From: a virus
DNA length: 64,000 nt
IMG/VR virus record: IMGVR_UViG_3300037518_000322
Location: 52,663-116,662 of that record
Reading direction: 5' to 3' (one strand)
Shown piece after piece: positions 18,033 to 60,500 of this stretch; within the stretch, counting starts at the first letter, position 1; every line of letters begins with the position of its first letter. The translations under genes and the position numbers were made by a program. Below the pieces are notes generated by a model. It did not search any database. It worked only from the letters and a program-made list of their open reading frames with translations, and was not told the DNA's origin.

Positions 18033-18150
18033 GTGAGCCCCCTGATGATCGGTTCGGCGAACACCAATATGGCGCCCAGGATGGTGCCCAGTGCTATACC
18101 GAGTAGGCCAGCGATGAGGAGGGCGTCGATGGTCTTCTGGTGGTTGCGGT

Positions 18151-20919: not shown

Positions 20920-21032
20920 GCGTGCGGCCCCCTCGTGTTTTGTCCGAGGGGCACACGTTAAAGCCATCAAGGTTGACGGCGCAAGATTATCTCATGGGGA
21001 AGTTTTTGTGTCAACCCGAAGGGGACAACTTT

Positions 21033-38018: not shown

Positions 38019-38831
38019 TCACTTCGCGCCCCTCTCCGCCAGCTCCTTCGCGGCCTCCTTGTAGGCCAGGGCGCCGTTGTTGGACGGCTCGTAGGTGATG
38101 ACCGTCTGCTGATGGCTGGGCGCCTCGCTCACCCGGACCGACCGGGGGATCTGAGTCTTCAAGACCTGCTCCGGGAAGTACTTACGCACCTCGTCGGCGA
38201 CCTGCTTGGACAGGCTGGTCGAGCCGTTGAACATGGTGAGCAGCACCGTGGAGATCCGCAGCCGGTCGTTCAGCTCCTCCTGGACCACCAGCTCGATGGT
38301 CTTCATGAGCTGCCCGACACCCTCCAGTGCGTAGTACTCGCACTGGATCGGGATGAGCACCTCGTCACCGGCGGTCATGGCGTTGATGGTGAGCAGGCCG
38401 AGCGAGGGCGGGCAGTCGATGAGGATGTAGTCGAATCCCATGCTGGACTGGCCGATCGCCCTGGCCAGGCGCCCCTCGCGGGACACCATGGACACCAGCT
38501 CGATCTCCGCACCGGCGAGATCGATCGTGGCGGGCGCGCAGTACAGGTTTGGGATCCTGGGGCACTTCTGGATGGCGTCGTCCAGCGGCTTGCTGTCGAT
38601 CAGCACGTCGTAGATGGAGAGGATGCCCTCGCTGTGATGGTCGATGCCCAGCGCAGTGGAGGCATTGCCCTGAGGATCGAGGTCGACCACCAGGACCCGG
38701 CTGCCGTGCAGAGCGAGGGAGGCGGCAAGGTTGACCGTGGTCGTGGTCTTGCCCACCCCGCCCTTCTGGTTGGCGACCACGATCACGCGGGTCTGGTCCG
38801 GGAGGGGGAAGCTGCTGATGCTGGTCGTCAT
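38019..38831 (-). CDS. parA: ParA/Soj chromosome-partitioning ATPase
   Basis: NQKGGVGKTT, DLDPQGNAST, IDCPPSLGLLT, PIQCEYYALEG, SEAPS: chromosomal-type ParA. Confidence 0.93.
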   Translation of the reverse strand: MTTSISSFPLPDQTRVIVVANQKGGVGKTTTTVNLAASLALHGSRVLVVDLDPQGNASTALGIDHHSEGILSIYDVLIDSKPLDDAIQKCPRIPNLYCAPATIDLAGAEIELVSMVSREGRLARAIGQSSMGFDYILIDCPPSLGLLTINAMTAGDEVLIPIQCEYYALEGVGQLMKTIELVVQEELNDRLRISTVLLTMFNGSTSLSKQVADEVRKYFPEQVLKTQIPRSVRVSEAPSHQQTVITYEPSNNGALAYKEAAKELAERGAK

Positions 38832-39743
38832 CGTGTCTCCTTCGTGTGACGTCACTTGGTCGTGCCGGTGAGGAAGTTCCAGAACTCCTCGGGGTCTCCC
38901 TGGTCGCCTTCGTACTCGCGCCAGGCCACCCGGATGGTGGCCTGGAGCATGGCGACCTGGACAACCGGCATGTCGGCGGGCGGCTTGATGACGTTGGAGA
39001 GCGGTTCGTACATGGTCAACTGCCTTCGGTGCGTCGATGTTTCACGTGGAACATTCACCCGCCCTGGGCTTCGCGCGCCTGCTTACGCTCGGCGTAGATC
39101 TGTTGGGCGGTGGTGCTGCCTTGCACAAAGGTCTGCAAGTACTTCCGTGCTGCTGGCGTCTTGTAGTTCATCTGGTGGGTCTTGAAGATGTCGAGCGCCA
39201 ACTCGACGGCCTCTGTGGACATCTCGGTGACCCACGAGTAATCCCGCCTGTGCACCTTGTGCAGTGCAACGACGAGGGACTTCAATTGCCGGTCCCGTAC
39301 GGCCACGCCGGGGGCGGTCGCGTTGAGCAGCACTTGCATCTGTCCGGGGGTCAGGTCGATCTCTTCCATGGGGTCTCCTTAGGTGGATGTTTCACGTGGA
39401 ACATTGCGGGGGTCAGCCCTTTGGGCCGCTACGTGCAGCCTCGATCGTCCACTCATGTGCGAGCAGGGACCAGGCCGACTCGGTCGTGGTGTAAAAGGAT
39501 CCGTCAGGGCCCTTGATCCTGCACGACAGCGGTCCGTCGTACGACATGGCGACGAGTCCTCGTGCCACAACGACGGGCAGGCCATCGTCCCCGCCGTCGG
39601 CGTCGTATCCCCACACTTTCACGGGCTGCGGCTTCGTCACGTCACGCGCGATGCTGCGCTTGCGTGGGGTGCTCATGCTGTATGGCATCTCGGGCTGTCC
39701 TTTCAGTGATGGTGGATGTTTCACGTGGAACATGTCGCCAGGG

Positions 39744-40937
39744 TCAGAAGTCCCAGCCATCCTCGCGGGACTGCTGGCGCTCCCGCTCTGCGATCTCACG
39801 GGACTTGGTGGTGCCGAGGTTGGCGCGGCGGATGTCCTTGTGACTGGACGGGTCGCCGTGCTGCGGGTCGACGGGGATGATCTGCGTGCCGGGCTCGTAG
39901 TCCACGTCGTCGAGCTTGTCGAGCTTGGTCCAGTATGGGTCGAGCCACTTCACATCCCACTTGGACTTGCGGGGCCCGAACCAGATCGTCTTGTAGTGGC
40001 CGCACCGTTGCTGTGGGTCCTGCTCGGCGCCGGTGGGGATGGACACCCCGTCACGGATCCGGCCAGCCATCCGCTCCCGGCGGGCATGGAGCTTGGGCCC
40101 GATGCGCCAGCCGACCTGAATGTAGAACGGGTCACGGGAGGGAGCCTGACGCTGTTTCCCCCTGGCCGGTGCGGGCGGTGGTTCCTGGATGTCCGCGTTG
40201 CTACAGCACAGGTAGGTGAGCAGCGACAGTGCGCCGGGGATGACCTGCTTGATGATGCGTCGTTGCTGCTTGGACCCGTCGCTCACGCCATGGAACTCGT
40301 TGGTGTGTGCGATGACATCGTCGAAGGTGAAGGGGCCAGTCATGGATGGCAGTGGGAAGACCGGCGTGAGGACATCGTGATACGTGGGCGTCGCCGGGTT
40401 CGTGTCGATCCACGGAACGATGCATAGCCCCTCCGACCGTGGGTCTGTCGTCGGGCAGAAGGCCCTGCCGATGCGGCCGGTCAGGAAGATAGCCCTGACC
40501 AGTCCTTGATCTCCGTCCGAGAAGTTCATCGGCCATGCACGCGGCAGGGGAATCATGGGGCTGATGTAGGGGAGCCGGGAGAACAGCTCGCCGGGCAGCT
40601 TCCCCTTCAGGTCCGTCCGGTACAGGCTGTTGGCCATCTCCAGGTGCACGTCGAAGGCCACCCGGCCCTGACGCCGCCACAGATCGATGACGGCGTGCGA
40701 TGCCGCCCGGTCGAGCAGGGTGGTCAGCTTCTCCGTGCCGTACGTACGCTCGAAGGCCTTGTTCCAGGTCGGAGTAATGCCCCGCCGCATCCTGACCGCA
40801 TTCCCGATGCCGTCGTGCGGCCACGTCTTCAAGTCGGCGGCCATCATGTTGTCGAGGTCGAGGATCCGCTCGACCGCGTCGTTCGTCCCCGAAGCACGCC
40901 GCATCCTCGGCGGCATGCCCTTGCTCTTCTTCCCCAT
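39744..40937 (-). CDS. Hypothetical protein, AcrVA2-like architecture
   Basis: 'WRRQG..FD...LP..LF.RLPY', 'LLTYLC', 'VGWRIG', 'RCGHYK..W.GP...VKWL.P'. Confidence 0.5.
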   Translation of the reverse strand: MGKKSKGMPPRMRRASGTNDAVERILDLDNMMAADLKTWPHDGIGNAVRMRRGITPTWNKAFERTYGTEKLTTLLDRAASHAVIDLWRRQGRVAFDVHLEMANSLYRTDLKGKLPGELFSRLPYISPMIPLPRAWPMNFSDGDQGLVRAIFLTGRIGRAFCPTTDPRSEGLCIVPWIDTNPATPTYHDVLTPVFPLPSMTGPFTFDDVIAHTNEFHGVSDGSKQQRRIIKQVIPGALSLLTYLCCSNADIQEPPPAPARGKQRQAPSRDPFYIQVGWRIGPKLHARRERMAGRIRDGVSIPTGAEQDPQQRCGHYKTIWFGPRKSKWDVKWLDPYWTKLDKLDDVDYEPGTQIIPVDPQHGDPSSHKDIRRANLGTTKSREIAERERQQSREDGWDF

Positions 40938-40939
40938 GA

Positions 40940-41431
40940 CTACTCCCCTGTCTCCCCTCTACCGGTCGATGTTTCACGTGGAACATTGACGACCGGACCG
41001 CCGTCGGGCACGACACGCACATCGAAGTTCCCGAAGGAGACGGTGTCGTTCTTGAATGCGGCAGTGAGCTGCGCCCGCACCCAGTCCACGGCTTCCTGAG
41101 CATCACGTGCCTGCACGGTGCGTTGAGCAGTGCGCAGTGCACCACTGTTCACCTGGTAGATCACGTCCACTTGGTGCGTGAACTTGTCCTCGACGGACGG
41201 CGATGTTTCACGTGGAACATCGACCGTCTCGTCCTTGATGATGATCCGCTGCGTGCGCTGGCCGCTGGCGAACTGCGACGTGATGAGCAGGTCGCCGGTG
41301 TCCGGGTCGTTGTCGATGGACAGGATCTCACCGCCGGAGGTATCGGGGTGGGCGGACAGCTCCCGCCTGATCTTGTTCTGCATCTCGCGGAATGCGTCAA
41401 CGCTCATGCGTAGCTCCTTGTAGCTGGTCAC
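40940..41431 (-). CDS. Hypothetical protein containing two in-frame parS sites
   Basis: VPRETS peptide occurs twice. Confidence 0.55.
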   Translation of the reverse strand: MTSYKELRMSVDAFREMQNKIRRELSAHPDTSGGEILSIDNDPDTGDLLITSQFASGQRTQRIIIKDETVDVPRETSPSVEDKFTHQVDVIYQVNSGALRTAQRTVQARDAQEAVDWVRAQLTAAFKNDTVSFGNFDVRVVPDGGPVVNVPRETSTGRGETGE

Positions 41432-41787
41432 TGGGTCTCCGATGTTTCACGTGGAACACCGCTGTCGCCTTCATCGTCTTCGTCGTCATCGAACCAGCTC
41501 GGCTCGGTCCCCCAAGCACCGCAGTACATGCAGCGGTACTTGGGCTGGATGTGATGGTCCTCGGCCCCGACGTGACCCTCTCGTTCGCAGCTCACGTCTC
41601 GGCCTCGGTGGATGTTTCACGTGGAACATCGGTCTCGGTCTTCCGCATAACCCAGACCACGTGGCCACAGACCCCGCCGGTGAACAGGTAGGCGTGCCCC
41701 GGGGCGCACTCCTGGACGACGAGGTCTTCGGTCTCCCCACAGTCATCGACCGGGCAGACGGTGTAACGCAGCTCGGGTGGGATCACA

Positions 41788-42294
41788 TCACTCATCACTG
41801 GCCGCCGATGTTTCACGTGGAACATTGAGCAGCGGGATCCCCCGCTCGGTGCGGAACTCGTCGATGGCCTTCTCGCAGCAGACGGGCTCACCGGCGATCG
41901 AGTGCGCGTCCTGGTTCACCAACGCGTCGGTGGCCTCGGTGGCGGTGAGCTCCTCCCACAGCAGGTAGCAGTGTGAGCAGGTGTGCTCCTCGTCGCAGAC
42001 GATCTCGGCCTTGATGACGTTGCGATGACGGAGCATCCCCGTCCTGATGACCGCGCAAGCCTTGCGGTAGTCGCCCTCGATGTCGCGGCTGGCGAGGTGG
42101 TCGCCCATTGACACGAAGCCGAAGTCCCCGAGGCGACGTGGGTGAATGACCAGGTCGAACGTCGGGCCCCACAGGTTTCCCTCAAGGGGATCGCCCCATT
42201 GGTCCCTGAAGCCGAAGCTGGCGATGGACACATGGGTCTGCATGGGATTGAACGTGGCGACGACGCGCCAGTTGTCACGGGTGGTCTTCTTCAT
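41788..42294 (-). CDS. Hypothetical protein
   Basis: GACAAGGAAG RBS, 168 aa. Confidence 0.55.
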   Translation of the reverse strand: MKKTTRDNWRVVATFNPMQTHVSIASFGFRDQWGDPLEGNLWGPTFDLVIHPRRLGDFGFVSMGDHLASRDIEGDYRKACAVIRTGMLRHRNVIKAEIVCDEEHTCSHCYLLWEELTATEATDALVNQDAHSIAGEPVCCEKAIDEFRTERGIPLLNVPRETSAASDE

Positions 42295-43052
42295 GGTGTG
42301 CTTCCTTGTCGATGTTTCACGTGGAACATTCAGTCGTCCACGATCTTCAGCCAGTCGTTGATGAGCCGGTCCTCGAAGCCCGCCCGATCGCGCCGGGACT
42401 CCCGCGCGTCGCTCTCGCTGAAGGCCGCGACGACCTGCTTCAGGGCATCAAGCCCTCCGGGATGGATGTCGACGGTCTGGAAGAAGAGCTGCACCTGCGA
42501 CCGGAGGGTCCGGAGATCCTTCAGCTCGGTCGGGTACTTCAGCTCGTCGAGTGCGGACCGGCGGCCGATGGCCTTGCCCATGGCGAAGATGCGGTCGAAT
42601 TCTCCACGACACTCCTGCTCGGTGGCCTCCTCGTCGAGGATCAGCCTGCTGGCCTGGTCGTACAGATGCTCAGTCTTGAGGTAGTCGGGGACACTGTTGT
42701 CGGTCATGGGTTTCCTTGTCGGGTGATGTTTCACGTGGAACATTGCTCAGTCGTGCGGGCCGATGTAAGTCACGCTGGTGATGTCGTAGCCTTCGGTCTC
42801 GTCCTCCTGTGAGATGTTCACGGGGTCGTTGGCTTCCTTCGACAACTCGCTGTCGCTGTCCTGCATCTGCTGCTCGGCCCACTGCTGTAGGTCGCCGTCC
42901 AGGACGTCCTGTGGTACGTCCACCACGACGTTGATCCGTTCCGTGATGGTCTTCGTGTTTTCGCCCGTGATCTCGATCTCGGTGCGGGGCATTACTCCTC
43001 CTTCGGATGGCGATGTTTCACGTGGAACATAGTTCGAACGGGTGTTCAATTC

Positions 43053-43490
43053 TCAGTCGCTGCGCTGTGCGCACTTCTCTTCGAGGAGCTGGGCCGTCAG
43101 GTCGACGTCGATGTCCACGCCCCCGTCCAACTGGCCGATGTCCCTTTCGCGCATCTCGTCAGCGAACCAGTCGGCGCCGAAGTAGTCGATGCTGAAGCAG
43201 ATGTCGTCCTTCTCCTTCTCGGTGGAGTCGTTCCAGGTGTACTCGATCATCCCCTCAGTGAGGGGGTCCGTCGTGGGCGTGGGTGTAGGGGTGGGGGGCT
43301 CGGGCGGCGGTGGAACCGACGCGGTGATGGTGACGGCCGGGCCGGGCGCTTGGTCCCTGTCGTCGCCCAGGGCGACGGCCACGAGGAGGCCGGACGGCAG
43401 AGCAACCGCGACTACTGCCAGGGCTATCCAGACGACAGTCAGTCCGGGGTTCCTGGGCGGCGGGTAAGGGGGCGGAGAGCCGAAGGTCAT
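43053..43490 (-). CDS. Membrane-anchored Pro-rich protein
   Basis: TM helix, PT-rich linker, two Cys. Confidence 0.55.
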   Translation of the reverse strand: MTFGSPPPYPPPRNPGLTVVWIALAVVAVALPSGLLVAVALGDDRDQAPGPAVTITASVPPPPEPPTPTPTPTTDPLTEGMIEYTWNDSTEKEKDDICFSIDYFGADWFADEMRERDIGQLDGGVDIDVDLTAQLLEEKCAQRSD

Positions 43491-43528
43491 TGTCTTTCCT
43501 TGTCTGGAGTGGGATAGGTTATCGGGCC

Positions 43529-43568
43529 GGAGCACACCCCGTGTAAGCGACGGGGTGTGCTCCTTTTT
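43529..43568 (+). terminator. Hairpin terminator
   Basis: GGAGCACACCCCGT..ACGGGGTGTGCTCC followed by TTTTT. Confidence 0.6.
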
Positions 43569-43899
43569 GGTCAGGCACCGCTGTAGGTGTCGTTCCAGTA
43601 GTTCCGGTCCTCCTGCGCCACCTGCTGGCAGGTCGGCTCAGGTGTCTCGCGTGCCCGTCGCTTGAGTACCAGGGCGATCCGTGAGGACTTGATCTCCTCG
43701 TACGTCCGGTCCTTCCACGAGACGCACATGGCGCAGCCGGTGCACTCGGTGAGGAAGACGTGGTTCCAGGGATCCTCCCAATCCCCGTATTCCTCACCGT
43801 AGGGGTCCAGCGGTGGGGGCATGGCGGTTTCCTTTCTCTCGGGAACGCGAAGAGGGCACCAGGATGGATTCCTGGTGCCCTCTGGCCGTTCGGTTGGTG

Positions 43900-44310
43900 C
43901 TACATGCGGCGGCGCTTGCGCAGTGCCAGCGCGCCACCACCGAGCAGCAGCACGCCACCTGCCGTCGCGATGTACGGGGTGGCGCTGCTGCCGCCGGTCT
44001 CGGCGAGGTCCTTATCCGTGGCCGGGCTGTCCGATTCAGTGACGGTCACTTTCTCCTCAGCTTCCTCGCGGTCGGCCGGGACGGGGGTGAAGTTGGCGGG
44101 CGGGTTCTCGCAGCCGACGCCATTCTTGTCGTTGCCGTCCAGCGCAGACTTGAAGTGCGGGCTGTCCGACGGGATGTTGGAGTGCCCGTTCTCGTACGCC
44201 TCGGTGCAGTTGGCGAACGGGGTGTGCCCGCCGTGCGCCAGCGCCGGGGTGGCGAGGAAGAGCGGGGCGGTTGCCAGGAGTACGGCAACTGCGGTGCGCG
44301 TAGGGCGCAT
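43900..44310 (-). CDS. Excalibur calcium-binding, LAETG sortase-anchored surface protein
   Basis: Signal peptide, 'FANCTEA...LDGNDKNGVGCE', LAETG-TM-RKRRR. Confidence 0.85.
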   Translation of the reverse strand: MRPTRTAVAVLLATAPLFLATPALAHGGHTPFANCTEAYENGHSNIPSDSPHFKSALDGNDKNGVGCENPPANFTPVPADREEAEEKVTVTESDSPATDKDLAETGGSSATPYIATAGGVLLLGGGALALRKRRRM

Positions 44311-47236: not shown

Positions 47237-47554
47237 TCACCGGCTCCTCCCGATCCGCTTCCACCAGGGGGCGCGGTTGTCATACTCCTGCGTAGCCGCC
47301 CATGCCCAGCGGGCGCCGTCCTCGGTGAGGTAGTAGAACCGGCGGGGAGGGCGTTCCGTCCCTTCGGGCAGCACCTCCCACTCCCCATACACGAAGCCAG
47401 CATTCTCCAGGCGGACGATGAGGGGGTAGAAACTCCCGGACCCGATCCCTTCCCTCATCGCCATCGACGCCGTGGTGTGGGTGTTGAACCGGCGGGCGGT
47501 CAGCATGAGGTCGAGGAGCTTGGCGGTCTTGCGGGTGACCCTGATGGTGGTCAC
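47237..47554 (-). CDS. PadR-family regulator
   Basis: 'GSGSFYPLI.RLE..G.V..EWE...RPPRRFYYLT..G'. Confidence 0.85.
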   Translation of the reverse strand: MTTIRVTRKTAKLLDLMLTARRFNTHTTASMAMREGIGSGSFYPLIVRLENAGFVYGEWEVLPEGTERPPRRFYYLTEDGARWAWAATQEYDNRAPWWKRIGRSR

Positions 47555-49302
47555 GGCCTGGTTCCCTTCTCAGGGCCGATGGCGTTGGGACCGGCGTTCA
47601 GCATCTCCTGGATGCCGTCGGCCAGTTCGGGGAAACCGTGCTCGCGGGCGGCGTCACGCATCTGCACCATGCCGTCACGGTCCAGCGTGAAGTGTGTCCG
47701 GCCGAAGGTGTCGGTGTAGGGGTACAACTGGATGCCGAGCATGGCGGCGATCGGCTTGAGCACGGCGTAGAACTCTTTTGGTGTGGAGAAGTCGTCGGTC
47801 ACCGCTTCTCCTCGATGCCCGCCGACAGGCCATTGAACGTCAGCACCGTGCCGTCGGTGTCCGTGAAGCAGTAGCTGCCGGGATCCCTGGTGACGTACGC
47901 GGCGGCCGTCTCGTCGGACTTGAGGATCTCGGCGAGGCGCTCGTCGGTGATGGCTTCGTCCTCGTGGTCCTCGTACGCCCGGGTGGCGCCGACCGCTGCC
48001 GCCGACTCCCATCGGCTGCTGAAGTGGTTGTCCATCAGTCCACGGAACTCGGCGGCCGTCCACCGGCGGCCGGGGCGCCAGTGCTCCAGGAACCGTGCGG
48101 CACCCTGGGCGTCGGCCGGGTTCTCCACGCCGTCGATGTAGTCGAGCAGCGCGTCTTCCCACGCATCGTCGGGGTAGGTCTGTGCATCCACGTGCTCGAT
48201 GATCTGCTGGGTCGTGAGCTTGAGGCTCATGGCGTTCCTTTCCTGTACGTAAGACCAGAGGGGCACACCCCGAGGGGATGTGCCCGTGCTGGTCCGGCGT
48301 TGTTCAGGTGTCCATGTCCTGGCCACGCAGGAAGCTGTCGACCGACTCCCGGCCGAGCAGCACGCCACAGAAATCGATCAGGACTTCCATCGACACGACG
48401 ATCTCGTCCTCGTCCGTGGAACCCGACCCCTCGGCGCCGTCCTTCGCTCGGTATGCCGCCCTCTCGACCTTCTCGACGTCGTCGCGGGTCAGTGCAAGAT
48501 CGCTCATCGGGCTGTCTCCATGGTCTTGGTGATGTCGAGGGCGGCGGCGTGCATGGCGTCGGCGGGTACGACCACGGCCATTTCGTCGCGGCCGATGATG
48601 GCGTCGTGCGGGTCCAGCATCTGGCCCATCTCCGTGGATGCCCACCGGACTTGGCCGATGACGAGGTAGTTGCCGTCGCTCAGTTTGAGGACGTCGGGGC
48701 AACTCTGGCCTGTGGCGGATCCGCGTTCGCGTGGGGTGGTGCCCATGCGGCGGACGATGTGGATGTTGCTGGTCACTCGGTCTCCTTGGTACATGCTGTG
48801 CGGATGCGGTTGCAGATGGCGCGCAGTGCCCAGCCGACGGCGAACAGGGCGGCAATGATGATGGCCCAGCCGCCTGCCATGAGCATGCCGAGCAGGCGGG
48901 CCGGGTTCAACAGCGGGCCCGTCTGATCTTGGATTCGGCGTTCAGGTAGAGGGCCAGCACGCAGCCGGTGACGGGTTCCAGGGTAGTGGCCTGGTCGGAG
49001 AGCACGCCGTCGTGGACGGCGTGGACGGCCCATTGTGGCGGGCCGTCCGGCCAGTTGATCACCCAGCCGATCGTCCCGTACGGGCCGGGCCAGTCCTGTT
49101 CGAGGGTGGGGCCATGGCCGGGTGTGATGGCAGTTGCGTAGCGTTCGGTGACGTTGTCCAGGACGTCCTGGGCCGTGGGGCGTGTCACGTGGAACAGACG
49201 GTGACGTATGCGCATCGTGCCCCTTCCTTGTCGGGTGGTGATGTTGCTTGGTGCGGACGGGGCGGACGTGTCCAGTCCGCCCCGTCCGCCCCTGAGCGAC
49301 GC

Positions 49303-49806: not shown

Positions 49807-49819
49807 CTGTCTTTCCTTG

Positions 49820-50389: not shown

Positions 50390-53300
50390 GTGGTCTCCAT
50401 CTCGTTCACGTACAGGCGCGGCGGCAGGTCGGCGTCCTTGAACGCGCTCCGGTGCTCCTGTGCGGCCAGGGAGTTGTACTCGTTGACCTTCTCGGCGCGG
50501 GTGCCCGCGAGGCCGGACAGGCTGGTACGGATGCGGGCCTCACGGCTGTCGTCCACGCCGCCCGCGAGCTCGTCTTCCAGGGCGTTGATGCGCGTCTCCA
50601 TCGTCTGGACGGCGGCGCACAGGCCGAAGAAATCCTCGTATGCCGACTGACGGAACGCGCCGTCGCCCTCGGTGCGCTCGATCTTCTCTGTCTCGCCACG
50701 GAAGGGCGCGGTGAGGCGCTGCATCCCTCCGGAGATGTAGATGATGGCGAGCACTGCGAGCAGGAACGCGATGATGGTGGCGATGATCGTCATTACCGGT
50801 CGTGTCTTCTTTTGTTTGCTGGTCACGTGGCTTGTGTGCCTTCCTTGTCATTGTTCTGGGTGGAGCTTAGAGGGTTACTTGATGGTCAGCTCAGACGTTG
50901 GTCCGCAGGAACGCAGGCAACCACGCCCGCTTGGGTTTGCGGGGCTGGGTGGCCTTCTTGTGGGCGTATGCGGTGAAGCCCATCATGGCGAGACCGGCGG
51001 GGATGCCGATCCATCCCCCAGCGGAGACGGGAGTTTCGGCGGAAATGGCTGCCGCTCCCTCGTAGTCGGCGAACATGCGGGTGCAGATGATGCCGACCAG
51101 CAGGACCCACATCGCGTCCAGGGTGACCGCGAGGCGGGCCCATCCCTTGCGTACTTCCAGCATCCGCCAGCCGGTGCCCTCGTACTTGGCGTCTTCCATC
51201 TCCAGGTCGATCGGTGTCGGCGAGGAACGGATGTCCTCCACGACGTCCCTGACGGTCGTCGGGGTGCTGCGCGGCCGGGGGCGGAAGTGAATCAGCTTGG
51301 TGAGGAGCACACCCGCCATCGCACAGGCGACGAAGAACAGTAGCCAGAGCCAGTTGTGCCACATGTCGAATGCGATGATGGCCAGGCCGAATGGGAGCAC
51401 TGCCGTGTGCAGTGGTTTGCACCAGCGGTGCGGGCAGGTTCGAGTAGGGGTATGTGGTTTCTTGGTCAAGATCCGCTCTCCGTATCGTTGTCATGTTCCT
51501 GCTTAAGGTCTCGCCGGACGCTGATGGCTGTCGCACCTGCTGCCCCCACGGTGAGGCCGAGGCAGAGCAAGATGCCACCCCAGGCGAACCTCTCGTACCC
51601 CACTTGCGCCTCGATGAAGGCGAGGAGCGTGATCGTGGCGATGATGGACGCCAGGACGCCCGAGGCACACAGGAGATCACGATTCAACACGGTCAGGTCC
51701 CCGTCGGCAGGGCCGAGACGGGGACGGCGAAGCTGCGCAGGAGAGGGTTCTGACGCAGGTGGAGGGCGACGCGTCGTCCCTCGTCGGTCAGATGGGCGCC
51801 GTAGTCCGGCTTGTTGATCAGGCCGGAGCTGTACAGCGAGAGGAATGTGGCCCTCCGGGTGTTCTTGACGGACCACACGGTGTGTTCGGTGTTGCCCGGG
51901 GCGGTTGCGGCGATGAGCAGGGTCGCCTGGTGGTTGCTGATGTAGATCTCGGTGAGTTCGGTCATCGGGACTCCTTGGTTTCACCTGGAACATGGCTGGT
52001 GAGTCAGAACTGTAAGGGCAAGGTCTGACACCGGGCTCCCCATGTGCCGGGCTTCCAGTGCCCAGCCTTCATCGTCGAGTCGGATGCGTGTCTCGTAGGA
52101 CCCTGCGGGTGCGTAGGCGGTGAAGCCGCAGAAGGTGGCGCGCAGGATGTGGCCGCTTGTGCTCTTCGCCCCACTCCGTGACCGGTACACACCGACGAGC
52201 CCCCAGACGTGGGGCTGCGCGGACAGACGCCTGGCGGCGTCGGCGTGGCTGACCGGCTTCGACCCGCGAGGTCTCCTTGCCATCAGGCCAGATCCTTGGT
52301 GGACAGGCGTTCGCCGTTGTACTTCTTGCCGCCGGTGACGTCGCCCTCGGGGTGGACGTAGTAGAAGCCGTCAAAGAACTTACCGCCCGGCAGATCCAGC
52401 CCGTCGGCCAGGAACTGATCCGGGTAGACGATGCCCCACCAGTTGTCCTTGGTACGTACCTTCAGGCCCGGGGTGATGGGTACGCCGTCGTCGGTGTAGT
52501 GGGCTTGAAGGATGCGGAAGCGATAGCCGGAGTAGACGTCCGTCCACGTGATTCCGATGGCCCTTGCCAGGTGGGCGGTCAGCTTCAGGGCGGTGGACTT
52601 CGGCACGCGTGCGCAGTCGTGCAGCACCTGTGCGGCGACGCGAGCGGCACGTGCGGGGGTGGCGAAGGCCATGCTGTGTGCCGTGACGGTGCCGGGTTTC
52701 TCGCCGGTACCAGGGAGCTGACGGATGAGCAGATACGTGGTCACGTCGGACCTTCCTTGTCGGGTGGTTCTCTTGGTCAGTTGGTGCGCGCGTTGCGGCG
52801 GATGATGGCCTGGTGGACGGCCAGGGCCGCGAACCAGGCGGCGAGAGTGAATACGGCGATTGCTGTCCCCAGCCCCCGTCCAGCGGCGAGCTGGGCCAGG
52901 AGGGTGACCGCTGAGGTGGCGATGCCCGTGAAGATCAGCAACTGGTTCGGGAGCTTGCCCAGGATCCTCAGCGCCAACGCCAGCATCATCGTGGTGGTGC
53001 AGGTGATGACGATGATCGAGGTGACGGCATCCATGTGCTGTCCTTTCGTCGGGGTTGTCCGGTATGGGAGCGGCCGGGGCGTGGGCCCCGGCCGCTGATG
53101 TTTCACGTGGAACATAGCGTCAGTAGAACTCTGGGAACCGGCGGCGGACCAGCTCTTCAGCCCACTCCGTGAGTTCTTCAACCCAGTCGTCATCGACGTC
53201 GTCCTGCCACCAGTTCGAGGCGTCGGCGTTATTCGCCATCTGGGCTCTGATGCCCTTGAGGATGGCCGAGCAGGAGAGGTCGGGCAGGGGGCCGTCGTCT

Positions 53301-56300
53301 TCGGTGTCGTGCTCGCGGTGCACGAGGCACAGGATGTTAACGAAGTCGGAGCCACCGACCCGGTGCGTGACACGGAAATCGGTGCGCTTCAGCCCGTCCT
53401 TCGACATGGTGACCTTCACTGGCCCCGCTCCCTGAGAATCTCCTGGCCGTGCGCGATGAGCTTTTCCAGGTCGGCGTACGTCATACGGACACCGACCTCG
53501 ACGGTGACGGACGGGGTGTACATCCCCTTCTCCTTGGCGCTCACGACGAAGGAGACCGAGTCGCCCACGTCGTCAATGCGGAGCTGGGTGTACAACTGGT
53601 CGTCCTCTTCGGTCCAGTAGTGGCGCATCGGACCACCGGCGGACTTCGCGTACGAGTGGGTGTCTTTCACAGGCATGGTGCCTCCTCATGTTTCACGTGG
53701 AACATCTCAGGTCTTGGGGAGCAGGGCGAGGCACCAGGAGGCGACCGGCTCGACCCACACACCCTCGGGCCAGACAACCGTGTCGTCCTGGCTGATCCGG
53801 ATCGCCCACTCCTCCATCCCGCCTTCGAGGGAGATGTTGAAGAACTCTCCCTCGTGGCCGGGGCCGTAGAGCGCGGCGCTGTCGTCGCCGGTGTACTTGC
53901 GGACGATGGCGAGGCAGGCACCGGCCTGCGCCTCGGTGATGTACCGGCGGCGCACACAGCGGGCGGGGACGATGGCGATATCCTTCTTGCCCTCCCAAAC
54001 GAAGACGACGACGGACAGGGGACCCCTGTCGTCCACGGCCTTGACGGTCGTGTACAGCTCGCCGTCGAAGTCGTCGTAGCCGGGGGCGCCGGTGACGTGC
54101 ACCTCGGTGCGGGTCTCGTTACTCATGGTGGTTCCTCTCCTATGTTTCACGTGGAACATCGTCAGTGCTGACAGGCGGAATGACCATCGGACCCGCACCG
54201 CTGGCACGGGGCCTGATGCTGGGGGCGGTTCTCGGGGGCGTCCTTGTAGGTCTGGGTGCAGTTCGGGCAGTACTCCATAGCTCTTCCTCAGTCCTTGGGC
54301 GGGGTGATCCACTTGATCCGGGCGATCCCGGCCCGGATCATGCGCAGGGCCAGGCTCCGGGCGCGGCCCTGTGGGTGGCGGGCGAACCCGGCGCAGATGG
54401 CAGGCTCCGCAGTGCCAAGCGTCTTGTGGCAAGTGATGTGGCCCTCGCCTGCGACGGCGTCACGCACCATGCCCGCCACCCGCCCCGGCTCCAGGTTCAT
54501 TAGGTTGCCGGGGCGGAACACGCAGGTGGCGCAGAGGTCTTCGCAGACACGGACCTCACCGGTGAGGGGGTTGCCGATGTGTGCGCCGGTTCCCCACTCG
54601 TCGTCGGTCAAGGGATCAACCCGTTGGCCCGGCGGTACGCCATCTCCCGCTGGTAGTCCTTCTCGCGCTCCGTCTGCGTCGGTGGCTTGCGGCCCGGCTT
54701 GTTGAAGACCCAGACGCCGGGGAGGCCATCCCCGGCGATCCAGATCTCGGAGGGCCTCTTGATCTTCTTCTCCAGCTCACCCCACCCGTAGTTGCTGAGC
54801 CAGCTCAGATCCATCCGGCTGTACTCCTCGTCGAGCCGGTCCTGTAGTGGGTCGGCCATGTCCTTGTAGAAGATGGCGAAGTGGTCGGCCATCTCCCCGA
54901 CCTGAAGCGGAGTCAGCATGTAGCCGCCGTGGAATTCGGAGGCCGCTGCGAGGACGGCGTTCACCGCGTCCTCGCAGTCGATGGGTCCCTCCCAGTCCTT
55001 GGCCTTGTCGTAGGCGTACTTCAGGGCCTGGGCTGCGGGCAGCTTGGTGTGGTCATCGGGGTCTGCCGTGTAAACAGCCTCGCTGACGTCCTCGTCTTCC
55101 CACGGGGACCCCTTCAGCCTCTCGAAGAGGGGGACCCAGACGGCGTGCATGTCGTAGGGGGTGGTGTTGTCGGTGGTCATGTCGGGACCTTCCTTGTCCA
55201 GTGTGGATGTTTCACGTGGAACATTCAGGCCAGGAGGGCGGTGCGGATGCGGGCCCAGCCATCCATGTCGATGTCGCAGATGTCGCGTCGTGTGACGGAC
55301 GACCGGAAGATGCGTGCCTTATCGGGGTCGCCACAGTTCTGCATGACCTTGAGCAGATCCGGGATGGGCCTGCCGTTGGCGGGGTTGTACTCGGGGCTGT
55401 ACAGCATGTTGAGTACTTCGGCGGCCAGGTAGACGTCCATGGATTGGCCTGTACGCTCGTCCGGCGCGGCGAGGAGACGCATCTGCTCCAGCAGCGGCGG
55501 GTCACTGCCCAGCCACATGCAGATCAGCGCCTCATAGTGGGTGAGGCCGGTGGGGAGGGGCAGGGCGATGGGCCTGATGGTCATGGTGTCCTTTCGATGT
55601 TTCACGTGAAACATCACTCCATGGTCATGGCGTCGATCCACTCACCGGCGGGCATTCCGCTGATGGTGGGGTAGCCGGTCTCGACTTCGTCGATGTCGCT
55701 GGGCTGGACGTCGACGCCCCTGTCCTTGGCCATGAAGATCAGGGCCTTGCGGATCAGGTGCTCCTCAATGGCGGACCGGAACGACGCCTCCGTTGTGGTC
55801 AGGCGGGGATATGCCTCCCGGCCACCAGTGCCGTACAGCCTGCCTTTGTACCCACGCTCGGTCTCCTCGATCTCGCCGATCGCCTCGCCGTCGGCGAGGA
55901 AGAACCACGCGTTGTGCAGGGGGCCCGTGCGCGGGCCGACGACATGACGGTTGTCGGATGTGGTGAAGTGCTCCATGCTTCCTCCTCGTAAGTCCAGAGG
56001 GCCCGCCGTGCGAGACGGCGGGCCGTGCTGGCGCCACGATGTTTCACGTGGAACATCAGCCCAGTGGCGAAGCTGGCGTCACGGCTGGGTGTGCTGCCGT
56101 GCCTGGTTGATGGCGAAGCGGATCAGTGCCCGGCCATGCTTGACGGCGTCGTCCAGTGAACGGGCTTCGGCTCCGTCGTCGAAGTACCAGCGGCGGGCGG
56201 CCAGATCCTCGTTGATGATGAGCGCCCGGCCGTCGGTCAGCTCCGCGTACGCCCACTCAAGGGTTTCCAACGTCACCCGTCCTTCCTTCTCGTCCCGTGC

Positions 56301-56357
56301 GCTCATGGGTGCTGCCTTCCTTCGTGCGGATGTTTCACGTGGAACATTGCTGGCCTC

Positions 56358-56621
56358 TCACTCCTGCACCAGCACCTCAAGGTCGTCGAACAGTTCCAGG
56401 ACGACCACAAGGGTCAGGTTGTCGATGACGATGTACTCGACCAGGATCCGGCTGGTCGCCTGGATCTTGCGCAGCGTGCCCTCGGCGTTCATCCCCACCG
56501 ACAACGCGTGGTAGGGATCCTCCTGGATGATGGCGATGCCCTTGCGGAGCCGCTCCTGCCGCTCCGGTGAGAGCGCTTGGACCTGCCGTTCAGCTTCGAC
56601 CGTGTACTGGATCTTCCTCAC
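56358..56621 (-). CDS. RelE/ParE-like small protein
   Basis: 'KIQYTVEAERQVQALS...I..IQEDP...RILVEY.V.D..LVVVL' fold pattern. Confidence 0.5.
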   Translation of the reverse strand: MRKIQYTVEAERQVQALSPERQERLRKGIAIIQEDPYHALSVGMNAEGTLRKIQATSRILVEYIVIDNLTLVVVLELFDDLEVLVQE

Positions 56622-57174
56622 GATGTGCTCCCTTCGATGTTTCACGTGGAACATTCAGGCGCTGCGGTCGGTGTCGTACAGGTAGTCCTCGTGTCCCTGG
56701 TGACCGAGGAACGCGAGGAGCCGTTCGTTGATCCCCAGCCACTGGTCATACATCGACTCGGGGTACGTCTTGTCACGCTCGTCCCACTCCTGGGTGTGCG
56801 GCTCGGCGATCATGTATTCCGACTGCCACTCCCGCCAGTTCGCCACCTGGTCGATGAGGACGCAGACGCTGGTGACCAGGTCCAGCACATCGAACGCGGT
56901 CGGCTCATCGTTGGACTCGTACGGATCGGGCAGGCTGAAGGTGCGCAGGTCCGGGCGGTGCAGGGCGACGGACCACCGGTAGCGCCTGCCGTCGTCGGAC
57001 ATGCCGCCCAGCATGCTCGTCTGGATGGTGATCTGTTCGTGCTTGATGCGCTGGCTCAGCAGCATGATGGTCTCCTCGGTCGATGTTTCACGTGGAACAT
57101 TGCGTCGTCGGTTCAAGGGGGTACGCCCCTGCCCAAGGCCGGGGGGCAGGGACGTGCCCGGCTTCAGCCGACGC

Positions 57175-57528
57175 TCAGTGCTGGCCGTCGGTGGGCTTGG
57201 TGCGTTCCGTCTTGGGGGCCTTCTTGATGGCGCTGCCCTTAGTGGGGAGCTTCTTACGCCCCGTCACCAGGTCTTGGAACGATGCGCCGGGGCGGAAGCG
57301 GACCTTGCGGGTCGCCTTGACGTGCACGCGCTCTCCGGTCTGCGGATTGCGGGCGTAACGGGCCGGAGCGTGAGCCTGGCGGAACGACCCGAAGCCGGTG
57401 ACCGAGACCCTCTCGCCGCCTGCGACAGCGCGGATGACGGCGTCGAGGACGGCGTCGACGGCTTCGGCAGCGGCCTGCCGGGAACCGAGCCTGAGGGCGA
57501 CCGCGTCAGTAAGTTGCTGCTTGTTCAT
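57175..57528 (-). CDS. HU family nucleoid protein, HupS-like
   Basis: 'MNK.QL...VSVTGFGSF....PARYARNPQTGERV.VK...RFRPG..F.DLV.G.KKLP'. Confidence 0.9.
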   Translation of the reverse strand: MNKQQLTDAVALRLGSRQAAAEAVDAVLDAVIRAVAGGERVSVTGFGSFRQAHAPARYARNPQTGERVHVKATRKVRFRPGASFQDLVTGRKKLPTKGSAIKKAPKTERTKPTDGQH

Positions 57529-60500
57529 GGGTTCCTCTCGATGGCGTGGCTCATCGGGTGAGCCTTCCTTGTCGATGTTTCACGTGGAACATTGCATTGC
57601 GGAGATCTCAGGCTTCCGTGATCTCCAGGAAGAACAGCTCGCCGCTGTCCTCGTGCTCGACCCCGATGACCGCCTTAGTCCCTGCGGCGTCGATGCTGGA
57701 CGCATTCAGGGAGCTGGTGTTGCGGTTGATGGTGAGGAGCAGCAGGTCGCGAAGCTCGTCTGTGGTCATGTCAGTCCTTCGGTTGGTGTGGATGTTTCAC
57801 GTGGAACATTCACCACTTGGTGACGGGTGTCTTGCCGTCGAAGCTGTAGCGGGACCAGTCGGGCTCAGGGGTGATGCTGATGGGGCGGGTGTTCTCGTAC
57901 CTGCGGGCACTGCTCCACGCGCGGACGGCGTCCAGCTCGCGTTCGTAGGTGCGCTCCTGGCGGTGCCAGGTGCCGCCGGGCTTGTTGTACTCGTCGGCTG
58001 GGGCCCACTCGCTGACGATGATAAAAGGTCCGATGGTCACCGTCTCTCCTCTCGATGTTTCACGTGGAACAATCACACGTGCTTGTGTTTCACGGTCACG
58101 TGCGTCGCGCTTCTGCCCGACCCATTCGGCGGACTCGTCACTGGCCCAGACGCAAACGTTGTGGATGTCGCGGATCTCCAGCGTGACGTCGCTATACATC
58201 AGGTGCAGCCGGTCGACGAGGACATTCGCGGCAGCGCGGGAGATACCGTCGACCAGGCGGACATCGGTCAGACCGGCGTTCCTCTCCATCCAGTCAGGGT
58301 CCGGGTTGTGGGTCCACACGGACACGGAGGTCTCGAAGTCGCACATGATCAGTTCTCCTTGGTCTCGGTGAATGGCTGGGTGTACTGGCCTTCGTGGGAC
58401 TCGTTGCCGTCGCTCCATCGGACGTGCATGGGGGTCGGGCAGTGGGCGGGGAGACCGAGACAGCCGCACTCACGGCCGTTGATCTGTGGCTGGTAGGTGT
58501 GGCGCTTGCACAAGCAGACCACGACACGCCCGTAATACGGGCCGTAATCGGGGTCGTCGTACCAGACCCGTGTGCCAGGCGGGTACAGGGTGATGGTCAT
58601 GGCGTGTCCTCGGGCTCACGGGCGACGCCGCCGGACCTGGCGACGGGGATGACCTGCCGCCAGGCGTCCATCTCGACGTGCGGCCCGCCACCGGCCATGT
58701 GGTCGAGGATCTCGGCGATCGTGACCAGGACGGCGGTCTGTGCGTTGATGGCGTGCGCAACCGCTTCAGTGGCCAGCGCGTTGCCCGTGACCGGGTCGGC
58801 CCCGTCGCCGTAGGTGTAGTGGTTCGCCCGGCCTGCGAGGTACTGCGAATCGCGGTAGTCCTGGGGTCCTGTGGACATGGTCAGTTCTCCTCGGGTTCGT
58901 GGCGGTCGGTGTCCGGGTTGGCTCCGCAGGATGCCTCACCGGTGGCTGTGCTGACTGGTGGGTCGTTGTCGTCCAGCTCATCCGAGCAGTGACGGCAGCG
59001 ACGTTGCTCGGGCATGTCGTAGTAGTAGTGGAACCACTCGCCATCGGACTCGAACCAGCGCCCGAAGTAGGCCGTCCCGTCGGGTTCGATCTTGACGCCG
59101 AACACGGGCCGGTCGTTGCGTGTGAAAGTGAGGAAGCGTCCTCCGTCGCCGTCGGCGGTGTCGCTGACGCTCAGCCCGGCGGGCAACGGATCGATACGGA
59201 TGGGCTTGTCACTGTCGGTCACGGGCGGAACTCCTTGGTGGGGTGGGCGGTGTTGGCGGGCAGGCACTGCGGGGTGGTGCGGTGCCACGTGTAGCAGCCA
59301 TCGCACAGGGTGTCATCCATCCCTGCGAACATCGCATCCTCAGGCTTGACCAAACGGGAACAGCACGGGCAGACGTTCGGCGGGGTGTCGGCGTCATCGA
59401 TGCGGAAGGTCAAGCCGGTGCCGGTGTGCGTGACCTCCGTGCCGAGCCGTTCCGATTCCTCCAGGAGACCCAGCGCGAAGAGGGCCGCATCGGTACGGGG
59501 GACGCCTTCCAGCGTCAGTTGGGCGACGGCGAAGAGGGCCACAAGTTCCCGATCAGAGCGGGGCACGGATACCAGGGCCTTGCCGTAGGCGGCGCCGCCC
59601 TCGGGCGGTTGGATGATGGACAGGACGTAGCTCATGGTCATGCTCCTTGTCTGTGGTCCGTACTCCGAGGGGAGCCCACCCCCTTTCGGGGATGGGCTCG
59701 GGTCACGGGGTGCGGCTATGTTTCACGTGGAACATCGGTGAAGCCGTAGGTGTGCGTCTCGCTGATGATGGTGGCGGTAGCGGTCCGCCTGATGACGCGG
59801 ACCGCATGGACACCGCCCAAAGGCGCTCCCCTGGACACAGCTCGTGTGCCGAGGACCAGTTCGGCGGCCACGTCATGGGCGTGGCCCTCGTCGTCTGTCT
59901 CCCCCGGGCGGTGGCTGATCGGATCGTAGAAGGGGTCAGTACCCGCCCACACACCACCTTCCGTCAGGTACTCGATGACGTAGACGGTCTCCGTCTCGCT
60001 GTACCCGAAGCGGGCGTTGTTCCACTCCTGGCGGCTGCGGTCCCACTCCTCGCGCTCCGCCTCCCGCATCTGGTTCATTTGCTTCAGTTCTTCTTTGGTC
60101 CAGCCGCTCATCGGCTGCCCTCCCTCATGTTTCACGTTCCACCATCACGGCTGCTTGGTTTCACAGGGCGGGGTGGTCATCCCCACCGGCGCCGCTTCTC
60201 ACTGTCGCGGTGCCCAGCGTCGGCGTGGGCGGGGTCGTAGGGGGCGAGGTCGCACACGTACACGACCTCGATGGACCCCGCCTCCTTGACGTCGCCGCAG
60301 ATGCGGGCCTTGCACCGGCCGATGTGATCGTCCAGGAGACGGCACGGCTTGTTGTCCTCCCACCGGACGGGCCTGTGGCAGAACGGTATCCATGCAGAAG
60401 GCGTCTTCATCCGCCGTCTCCGCTGATCTCGTCGATCTTGCTCACGGCGAGGGCAATCATGCTGTCCCGACGGCCGGTCAGGTACGCCTCGATGTGTGTC

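What the first reader, a model, noticed from the sequence alone, without database searches (positions are those of the whole stretch)
38019..59734. Phage-borne 'centromere': 24 host-type parS sites plus ParA, no ParB in window
Seen: 24 copies of a 16-mer reading TGTTCCACGTGAAACA on the minus strand (one is the perfect palindrome), in two clusters (39.0-43.0 and 53.1-59.7 kb), with degenerate copies at 49181, 51977 and 60128. The first copy is about 200 bp upstream of parA, and no ParB-like ORF is recognisable. Established: this matches the chromosomal parS consensus TGTTNCACGTGAAACA bound by Spo0J/ParB in Bacillus and Streptomyces. Streptomyces chromosomes carry a comparable multi-site parS cluster around oriC, and Bacillus phage phi29 uses parS with host Spo0J to enter prespores. 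Inference: the phage builds an oriC-like centromere to recruit host ParB (and SMC), either to be segregated into hyphal tips or spores or to titrate ParB away from the host chromosome.
Basis: partly seen in the sequence, partly recalled or inferred. Interest (0 to 1): 0.92.

Follow-up and report, generated by a model that had tools for sequence, protein, structure and literature searches.

The report
Host centromere sites on a phage
A 117-kb phage of Streptomyces-like bacteria carries 24 copies of its host's chromosome-sorting site and its own altered ParA motor but no ParB, the protein that reads the site, so it most likely loads the host's ParB onto its own DNA.

Summary
There are 23 exact TGTTCCACGTGAAACA sites plus one perfect palindrome, against 0 expected. 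All lie at window 39038-59734 and nowhere else in the 116,662-bp phage genome.

- **Host match:** the 14-bp core equals the Streptomyces chromosomal parS, and the T5C form is the commonest natural host variant.
- **ParA, no ParB:** parA (38019-38831, minus strand) is a chromosomal-type ParA, about 70% identical to Streptomyces ParA. No ParB profile matches this genome or a complete 111.5-kb relative that carries 20 such sites.
- **Placement:** all sites point the same way at gene junctions. That orientation is the one that breaks the hairpin in the mRNA.
- **Altered ParA:** it belongs to a clade of short ParAs that lost the Arg equivalent to B. subtilis Soj R189, a nucleoid-binding residue.
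- **Recombinase:** both phages encode a tyrosine recombinase.

My best reading is that host ParB loads on these sites (about 0.7). The purpose is open: positioning or inheritance, gene silencing, or ParB titration. The known precedent is phi29, with five parS sites read by host Spo0J. This scan had already noted similar arrays on other phage DNA.

The parts
39038..43029 (-). parS cluster 1: 11 exact copies of TGTTCCACGTGAAACA at 39038, 39388, 39717, 40970, 41204, 41443, 41613, 41809, 42313, 42727 and 43014
   Evidence: The sites lie between, or in the 3' ends of, small minus-strand genes.
53099..59734 (-). parS cluster 2: 12 exact copies plus the perfect palindrome at 55598. Sites at 53099, 53689, 54143, 55208, 55598, 56040, 56331, 56638, 57084, 57576, 57793, 58056 and 59719
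38019..38831 (-). parA: a 270-aa chromosomal (Soj)-type ParA. The Walker motifs are intact, there is no N-terminal extension, and Ser replaces the Arg equivalent to B. subtilis Soj R189
   Evidence: PF13614 at 207 bits. phrog_164. About 70% identity to Streptomyces ParA. Alignments. Motif census. Clade.
38852..39013 (-). 53-aa acidic protein of unknown function. It is adjacent to parA here (upstream) and in the relative G001 (downstream), with 56% identity
   Evidence: No Pfam or PHROG family.
37603..38022 (-). 139-aa ORF in the position where parB would sit, overlapping the parA stop. It has no family and no homologue in G001, so it is not a recognisable ParB
49181..49196 (-). Degenerate copy with 2 mismatches (TGTTCCACGTGACACG)
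51977..51992 (-). Degenerate copy with 2 mismatches (TGTTCCAGGTGAAACC)
47237..47554 (-). PadR-like winged-helix regulator of 105 aa, with a 35%-identical homologue in G001. It is one candidate for a rival, phage-encoded binder
   Evidence: 30.9 bits against a cut-off of 27..
33662..36706 (-). D5/P4-type primase-helicase. The parS clusters lie directly upstream of this replication module in both phages

Best explanation
The 24 sites are working copies of the host (Streptomyces-type) chromosomal centromere parS. The phage has no ParB, so the host's ParB-CTP clamps load at these sites and coat two blocks of small genes next to the replication module. The phage's own ParA keeps the ATPase core and the loop that holds ParB's N-terminal peptide. 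It has lost a nucleoid-binding arginine. It therefore probably acts on the ParB-phage DNA complex as a tether or modulator, not as a nucleoid-riding motor.

The likely outcome is that phage DNA is handled like a chromosome origin region: positioned, anchored or carried along in hyphae or spores, or kept as a plasmid-like prophage. A quieting of the coated genes is a possible side effect or second use.

- **Shown:** the sites, their identity to host parS, the absence of a ParB gene, the ParA features, and conservation in a relative.
- **Inferred:** ParB binding, the ParA-ParB contact, and the purpose.

The uniform orientation is best explained as follows. T5C is the variant the host most often tolerates, and it is used in the one orientation that destroys the self-complementary hairpin in the mRNA just ahead of the ribosome-binding sites.
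For: **The sites are real and far beyond chance**
- 24 sites against 0.00 expected, confined to 20.7 kb of a 116.7-kb genome.
- The exact 16-mer is the parS oligonucleotide used in ParB/Soj biochemistry papers (listing; passage of PMC6393308).

**They match the host**
- Five Streptomyces genomes hold 12-22 core 14-mers each.
- In 400 kb of origin-proximal DNA from four of them, 63 sites fall within one mismatch of the core: 51 perfect, 10 with T5C and 2 other.
- Host half-sites also favour A at position -1 (46 of 116 against a 15% background). The phage has A at -1 in 41 of 44 sites.

**The relative shows the same pattern**
- G001 is 111,555 bp and rated 100% complete. Its ParA is 68% identical. 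Only 66 of my 198 crude gene calls are shared.
- It has 20 sites with the same variant and the same orientation. Its 4 mismatches all fall at the outermost positions 1 and 16. This is the pattern expected for recognition of the 14-bp ParB core.

**No ParB**
- No match to PF02195 or TIGR00180 in either genome; controls ring in 10-13 of 14 genomes.

**ParA**
- Walker A, A' and B are intact.
- The DLDPQGNASTALG(I)DHH segment is invariant between phage-type and Streptomyces ParAs. It aligns with HpParA D41 and F52, the residue that clamps ParB's N-terminus (abstract of PMC11229316; numbering).

**Orientation**
- All 43 asymmetric sites in the two phages lie the same way relative to their genes.
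- Predicted RNA hairpin energy is -0.5 to -1.3 kcal/mol for the sense C-variant. It is -5.0 to -5.8 for the perfect palindrome and -4.5 to -5.3 for the opposite orientation.

**Precedent**
- phi29 has five parS sites used with host Spo0J (PMC2731898).
- ParB in S. venezuelae binds 16-17 parS sites, spreads 2.5-3 kb, and anchors the apical origin at hyphal tips through ParA (PMC12511625).
Against: - No binding data exist, and the phage is known only from metagenomes.
- The strict co-orientation and the junction placement resemble operator or 'stoperator' arrays. Stops lie within about 35 nt of the site, and starts typically lie 11-33 nt downstream. This placement is not needed for a centromere.
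- 43 of 44 phage sites use the T5C form, against 10 of 63 in hosts. C at +2 (35 of 44) is not a host feature. Some selection beyond ParB binding therefore acts on the sites.
- The phage encodes several DNA-binding proteins that could bind the motif instead: XRE, GntR, PadR-like and HU.
- ParA lacks the R189-equivalent arginine. That argues against a standard partition motor.
- Streptomyces plasmids avoid the chromosomal centromere (PMC13245405).
- No close prophage or plasmid form was found in 401 sampled Streptomyces genomes with the primase query (best 43% identity in the table; one shorter match at 50%).
Confidence: 0.7

Rival explanations
1. Regulatory array, in the manner of stoperators or KorB operators. 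The sites act mainly on transcription. A bound protein at each gene junction blocks or silences the small, probably early, genes, for instance in a dormant or prophage state. The bound protein could be host ParB used as a co-opted repressor, or a phage regulator.
For: - All sites are co-oriented with transcription and sit at gene junctions.
- 12 copies share a 47-nt composite of stop, parS, ribosome-binding site and start (family D5).
- parA itself is flanked by sites in G001.
- Both phages have a tyrosine recombinase and XRE-type regulators.
- No sigma-70-like promoters were found in 37-56.9 kb, which fits long read-through operons.
- KorB/OB sites and Cluster A stoperators are recalled precedents.
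Against: - ParB clamps are weak roadblocks in most systems (recalled).
- The orientation has a simpler explanation in hairpin avoidance.
- The ParB version of this rival is compatible with the best explanation. It differs only in purpose.
Confidence: 0.2
2. ParB sponge. The array, multiplied by phage replication, drains ParB from the host origin region. Together with a non-nucleoid-binding ParA decoy, this disturbs host chromosome anchoring, segregation or sporulation.
For: - One phage genome carries as many sites (24) as a whole host chromosome (12-22).
- ParA lacks a nucleoid-binding arginine across the clade but keeps the ParB-contact loop.
Against: - There is no evidence that losing ParB function helps a phage. 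ParB is dispensable for vegetative growth (recalled).
- A sponge would not need junction placement or a fixed orientation.
Confidence: 0.12
3. The motif is the operator of a phage-encoded dimeric regulator (PadR-like, XRE or GntR), or an RNA-level signal ahead of the ribosome-binding site. On this reading its identity to parS is mimicry or coincidence, without ParB involvement.
For: - The extended motif A-TGTT...AACA-T-C is longer than the host core.
- It reads ATGT-N10-ACAT, reminiscent of the PadR ATGT/ACAT half-sites (recalled).
- The PadR-like and XRE proteins are conserved in both phages.
- The sites lie 11-33 nt before start codons.
Against: - A 16-of-16 match to parS cannot be chance.
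- In G001 the only variation is at the outer positions, which would break ATGT/ACAT, while the inner 14-mer is invariant.
- A chromosomal-type ParA sits inside the array in both phages.
- No Rfam family matches the region, and the chosen variant weakens RNA structure.
Confidence: 0.08

Closest known systems
parS sites of the virulent Bacillus phages phi29 and Nf, read by host Spo0J (ParB) for entrapment in spores (PMC2731898, passages read)
   Same: Host-type chromosomal parS on a phage that has no ParB. The host forms spores. The host's segregation protein is exploited.
   Different: phi29 has five sites and no ParA. This phage has 24 co-oriented sites at gene junctions plus an altered ParA, in a 117-kb actinophage with a recombinase. 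Nothing has been shown experimentally here.
Origin-proximal parS cluster of Streptomyces chromosomes (16-17 sites in S. venezuelae; PMC12511625; Jakimowicz et al. 2002, seen only as a citation there)
   Same: The same 14-bp core, the same natural T5C variant, the same A(-1) preference and a similar number of sites.
   Different: Host sites are spread over roughly 100-200 kb, are mostly perfect palindromes and lie in both orientations. The phage packs them into 4 and 6.6 kb. 23 of its 24 sites are T5C, and all point the same way.
parABS cassettes of actinobacteriophages and phage P1, which partition extrachromosomal prophages (PMC7157519 seen as a search listing only; details recalled)
   Same: A phage-borne ParA with centromere sites nearby. 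A recombinase is present, as Cre is in P1.
   Different: Those phages encode their own ParB and private parS sites. This one has no ParB and uses the chromosome's own centromere sequence, which Streptomyces plasmids avoid (PMC13245405).
KorB/OB operators of plasmid RK2 and the stoperators of Cluster A mycobacteriophages (both recalled, not read here)
   Same: Tens of copies of one site dispersed at gene or operon boundaries. Stoperators are likewise oriented with transcription.
   Different: Those sites are read by an element-encoded protein. Here the sequence belongs to a host protein, and no element-encoded reader is identified.

Membership tests
Chromosomal parS (ParB/Spo0J binding site) | 16-bp near-palindrome matching TGTTNCACGTGAAACA (the consensus is recalled) | tested here: met
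   24 of 24 sites match at all 16 positions. The same 16-mer is used as parS DNA in published ParB/Soj work.
Chromosomal parS (ParB/Spo0J binding site) | Identity with the sites of the presumed host genus | tested here: met
   The Streptomyces core is GTTTCACGTGAAAC. The T5C form makes up 10 of 63 origin-proximal sites.
Chromosomal parS (ParB/Spo0J binding site) | Bound by ParB, which nucleates CTP-dependent spreading | not testable with these tools
   Needs EMSA, BLI or ChIP-seq.
Self-contained ParABS partition system | Walker-type ParA ATPase | tested here: met
   PF13614 at 207 bits. The KGGVGKT, DLDPQGN and IDCPP motifs are present.
Self-contained ParABS partition system | Cognate ParB (centromere-binding protein) encoded by the same element | tested here: not met
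   PF02195 and TIGR00180 give no credible match in G000 or G001. The ORF in the parB position has no family and no G001 homologue.
Self-contained ParABS partition system | ParA basic patch for non-specific nucleoid binding (BsSoj R189/K201/R215/R218; PMC6393308) | tested here: inconclusive
   The R189-equivalent is Ser, while the other three positions are K, R and R in G000. 9 of the 120 best homologues lack this Arg, and all 9 are short forms. DNA binding was not measured.
phi29-type exploitation of host ParB | Host-type parS on a phage without parB, in a spore-forming host | tested here: met
   The host genus is inferred from ParA (70% identity to Streptomyces) and from the capsid protein (51% to Streptomyces phage Dagobah; 48-63% in 8 of 401 Streptomyces genomes).
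phi29-type exploitation of host ParB | ParB-dependent carriage of phage DNA into spores | not testable with these tools
   Needs an isolate and a parB mutant host.
Stoperator / operator array | Asymmetric sites in one orientation relative to transcription, in short intergenic gaps | tested here: met
   All 43 asymmetric sites in the two phages are co-oriented. In G000, 20 of 24 have an upstream ORF stop within -45 to +40 nt and 20 of 24 have an RBS-led start within 120 nt. In G001 the figures are 19 of 20 and 18 of 20.
Stoperator / operator array | Read by an element-encoded repressor | not tested
   Only candidates exist: XRE, GntR and PadR-like proteins.

The most novel reading that the evidence does not exclude
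A lineage of large Streptomyces phages has evolved a two-part hijack module. The first part is a dense, co-oriented array of the host's own centromere sites. The second is a phage-specific ParA that still engages ParB but no longer rides the nucleoid. Together they turn host ParB into a phage factor. ParB would tether the phage genome to the hyphal-tip or prespore segregation machinery, giving carriage through growth and spores or a plasmid-like prophage that needs no ParB of its own. At the same time it would clamp down the flanked early genes. That would make a bacterial centromere protein serve as both the phage's partition adaptor and its repressor.
Probability: 0.3. Interest if true: 0.85.

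Novelty: new variant of a known kind. Interest (0 to 1): 0.72.

Why it matters
Phages are known to borrow host ParB in one case only, phi29, which has five sites and no ParA. This phage, and at least one distant relative, instead carry a full-size centromere array. It holds as many sites as the whole host chromosome. It is coupled to a ParA of a separate, phage-type clade that has lost a nucleoid-binding residue.

If host ParB loads there, this would be a natural experiment in several things:
- how ParB clamps, ParA and perhaps SMC treat a second 'origin' in multigenomic hyphae;
- how a virus can be inherited, positioned or silenced by chromosome-segregation machinery;
- why plasmids avoid the chromosomal centromere while these phages adopt it.

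It also yields a compact, testable cassette (the array with or without the phage ParA) for Streptomyces cell biology.

Tried and rejected
- **Close isolates:** a megablast of 38000-44000 against cultured phages found only a ParA-like fragment. No close isolate is known.
- **Scan of IMG/VR for the exact 16-mer:** The 80 contigs listed had at most 4 copies each, so this route gave no further array.
- **Primase as bait:** it found nothing in viral contigs and only a 3.3-kb fragment without the upstream region in metagenomes.
- **A hidden ParB:** the 12-bit PF02195 hit at genome 20761-20850 lies in a VWA-like protein, and hmmscan does not reproduce it. I rejected it.
- **The 139-aa ORF after parA as a ParB substitute:** it has no family, no G001 homologue, and Atlas hits below 0.9 with a poor model. 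It stays unassigned.
- **ParA with the conserved 53-aa neighbour (complex prediction):** no verdict. The score was 0.01 against a mark of 0.32.
- **Promoter reading:** no sigma-70-like sites in 37-56.9 kb and no sigma-factor gene. Nothing is conserved at a -10 distance downstream of the motif.
- **oriC mimicry beyond parS:** DnaA-box-like 9-mers are not enriched.
- **Known RNA family:** none.
- **Resident prophage:** the primase query gave at most 43% identity among the listed top matches, and one shorter match reached 50%, in 401 Streptomyces genomes. Capsid homologues at 48-63% in 8 of the 401 belong to other, smaller prophage types.
- **Sequencing runs:** no RNA holder is listed. All holders are sediment or soil metagenomes, one of them the likely source.
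- **Laying four runs on 38000-43600:** outside parA there were only short, low-depth contigs, and parA itself was swamped by bacterial ParA. No usable microdiversity test resulted. Several low-depth joints fall at parS coordinates, but they may be repeat artefacts, so I draw nothing from them.
- **Tree:** the careful search did not finish, so only the quick tree is used.
- **Gene calls:** my gene calls are a crude GC3/RBS caller and miss some small genes. The frame labels printed were wrong and are not used.
- **Supplements:** supplementary files of papers were not opened. Supplementary Figure S1 of PMC6393308, the residue alignment, may bear on the Arg mapping. I made that mapping and the paper's text.

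Full report
**What is there.** The window is the right-hand 64 kb of a 116,662-bp virus record. CheckV rates the record 92% complete, and its last ~150 bases repeat its first bases. It is a real tailed phage. It encodes a terminase, portal, head protease and major capsid protein, and a DNA polymerase, D5-type primase-helicase and Dda-like helicase. Its capsid protein is 51% identical to that of Streptomyces phage Dagobah.

One search finds 23 exact copies of TGTTCCACGTGAAACA, all on the minus strand, where shuffles give none. One search adds the perfect palindrome at 55598 and two 2-mismatch copies at 49181 and 51977. The sites form two clusters, 39038-43029 (11 sites) and 53099-59734 (13 sites). 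There is no other copy at up to 2 mismatches anywhere in the genome.

**The sites are the host's centromere.**
- The exact 16-mer is the parS DNA used in published ParB/Soj biochemistry (search listing; methods passage of PMC6393308).
- The phage ParA is 69-71% identical to many Streptomyces chromosomal ParAs, and genome loci of Streptomyces rank first at 70%.
- Five of those Streptomyces genomes hold 12-22 copies of the core GTTNCACGTGNAAC each, clustered on the contig that carries parA.
- In 400 kb of that origin-proximal DNA from four genomes I counted 63 distinct sites within one mismatch of the core. 51 are perfect, 10 carry exactly the phage's T5C change and only 2 differ elsewhere. The phage form is thus the commonest variant that the host itself keeps.
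- Host half-sites also favour A just outside the 16-mer (46 of 116 against a 15% background). The phage sites have A there in 41 of 44 and the mirror T in 40 of 44.

**No ParB.** Six-frame searches with the ParB_N domain (PF02195) and the full ParB model (TIGR00180) find nothing credible in this genome. They also find nothing in its relative G001. The same searches ring in 10-13 of 14 control genomes. The one 12-bit hit lies in a VWA-like protein and is not reproduced by hmmscan. The 139-aa ORF that overlaps the parA stop, where parB would be, has no Pfam, PHROG or Atlas relative and no homologue in G001.

**A relative shows the same design.** G001 is an IMG/VR record of 111,555 bp, classed as having terminal repeats and rated 100% complete. 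Its ParA is 68% identical. It carries 20 sites: 16 exact and 4 with a single change, always at the outermost position 1 or 16. All are the same T5C variant in the same orientation on the coding strand.

Only 66 of my 198 crude gene calls in this phage have a homologue there. The genes flanked by sites are mostly different or shuffled. For example, the 53-aa gene at 57608-57769 sits beside the homologue of the 41788-42294 gene in G001. The motif is therefore kept by selection independently of its neighbours, and the invariant part is the 14-bp ParB core.

**Placement and orientation.** All genes here are on the minus strand. The sites lie at gene junctions. In this phage, 20 of 24 have a long upstream ORF that stops within -45 to +40 nt. 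20 of 24 have an RBS-led start within 120 nt downstream, and 16 of those starts lie within 11-33 nt. In G001 the figures are 19 of 20 and 18 of 20.

Some sites lie inside the last codons of a gene, always read as (D/N)VPRETS. Twelve copies share a 47-nt composite of stop, parS, ribosome-binding site and start (family D5).

All 43 asymmetric sites in the two phages point the same way relative to transcription. A centromere does not need this. One explanation fits without a new factor. Position 5 is the position the host most often tolerates changing. In the sense orientation the C makes a C·A mismatch that abolishes the RNA hairpin (-0.5 to -1.3 kcal/mol). The perfect palindrome gives -5.0 to -5.8 kcal/mol, and the opposite orientation, with a G·U pair, gives -4.5 to -5.3 kcal/mol; both keep the hairpin. 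Selection against a hairpin just ahead of ribosome-binding sites would give exactly this pattern. This is inference.

**ParA is altered.**
- It has the deviant Walker A, A' and B motifs.
- The stretch DLDPQGNASTALG(I)DHH is invariant between phage-type and Streptomyces proteins. This stretch aligns with HpParA D41 and F52. F52 clamps the ParB N-terminal peptide (abstract of PMC11229316; numbering).
- In the LLTMYDGRT motif the Arg is Ser. This Arg aligns with T. thermophilus Soj R182. PMC6393308 equates R182 with B. subtilis Soj R189, a residue needed for nucleoid binding (passage).
- Of the 120 best homologues, 106 keep D(G/A)RT, 9 have lost the Arg, and for 5 my pattern found no motif. All 9 that lost it are short forms of 265-297 aa without the N-terminal extension. 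Five of them also replace the R218-equivalent by Q.
- These short forms, together with G001's ParA and one Arg-retaining member, form one clade outside the Streptomyces clade (SH-aLRT 91; quick tree only).

The phage ParA is therefore not a fresh copy of the host gene. It belongs to a diversified phage-type lineage that probably no longer rides the nucleoid.

**Other context.**
- Both phages encode an 82%-identical tyrosine recombinase. Regulators of XRE and GntR type lie near it.
- A PadR-like protein and an HU-like protein lie between and within the clusters.
- No sigma factor, no sigma-70-like promoter in 37-56.9 kb and no Rfam family were found.
- DnaA-box-like words are not enriched.
- With the primase as query, no close relative of this phage was found in 401 sampled Streptomyces genomes.

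**Reading.** The most economical explanation is that host ParB loads on these sites. The sequence is the host's. The only partition gene on the phage is a ParA, whose known partner is ParB. ParB is missing from two genomes, one of them complete.

In S. venezuelae, ParB spreads 2.5-3 kb from each parS, recruits SMC, and together with ParA anchors the apical origin at the hyphal tip (PMC12511625). Eleven and thirteen sites within 4 and 6.6 kb would therefore build two dense ParB domains beside the replication genes.

What this achieves is not shown. I favour positioning or inheritance: tip anchoring, carriage into spores as in phi29 (PMC2731898), or a plasmid-like prophage, given the recombinase. 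Quieting of the coated genes is a possible second effect. A ParB sponge and a purely phage-encoded reader rank lower. The outer-position variation in G001 and the embedded ParA argue against a PadR-type or other private operator.

**What is known.** The phi29 case is the direct precedent. Actinophage and P1 parABS systems encode their own ParB. Streptomyces plasmid ParBs do not bind the chromosomal site (PMC13245405). My searches for this arrangement in print found no description of a host-parS array with an orphan ParA on a phage (a passage search of PMC12704722). These searches cover only the held library.

Within this scan, earlier AI notes report the same design on a 111-kb phage, which is probably G001, and on a 104-kb phage with 32 sites. 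I confirmed the first independently and could not reach the second.

Noticed in passing
window 7520-9199 (minus strand): A 559-aa protein matches phrog_850, 'RNA-binding protein'. Earlier notes of this scan call it a Ro60/TROVE gene with an upstream array of Y RNAs and tRNA-like elements at 9200-10913.
   Followed up: no
window 18151-20970 (minus strand): The 939-aa DNA polymerase matches other actinophage polymerases in two pieces that cover only 60-68% of it. This suggests a large insertion, possibly an intein.
   Followed up: no
genome 26019-27065 (L120:6019-7065, outside the window), and G001 18074-18745: A tyrosine recombinase (Phage_integrase domain at 39-40 bits, plus a weak SAM-like N-terminal domain) is 82% identical between the two phages. 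XRE and GntR regulators lie nearby at genome 19475-19717 and 21446-21919. This bears on whether the phage is temperate or plasmid-like.
   Followed up: partly
window 44550-44571, 49213-49234, 52742-52763, 63260-63281 and 63572-63593, and after several parS sites: A conserved extended ribosome-binding motif, GACAAGGAAGG on the coding strand, recurs just before start codons (families D8 and D11). It is reminiscent of the start-associated sequences of Cluster K mycobacteriophages (recalled).
   Followed up: no
window 40970, 41204, 41613 and 41809; G001 84666, 87180, 87605 and 87852: Where a site lies inside a gene it is always read in one frame, as (D/N)VPRETS. At 41613 and 41809, and at G001 87180, 87605 and 87852, the upstream ORF stops 18 nt after the site. 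Unrelated proteins therefore share a short C-terminal tail.
   Followed up: partly
window 43529-43563: A 14-bp GC-rich hairpin with a T-run on the plus strand lies just upstream, in the sense of transcription, of cluster 1. It may mark a boundary between transcription units.
   Followed up: no
window 57175-57528, 47237-47554, 45537-46457 and 43900-44310 (all minus strand): Four annotated genes lie in or between the clusters. They are an HU-like DNA-binding protein (83 bits), a PadR-like regulator, a polynucleotide kinase-phosphatase, and a small protein with an Excalibur domain and an LPXTG-like anchor.
   Followed up: no
window 39383/39713 to 41459/41630/42331 (joints in runs X2, X3 and X5): Low-depth metagenome contigs join sequence next to one parS site to sequence next to another, with 27-38 other letters in between (table 5c). 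This may reflect cassette exchange at the repeats in related strains, or alignment artefacts caused by the repeat.
   Followed up: no
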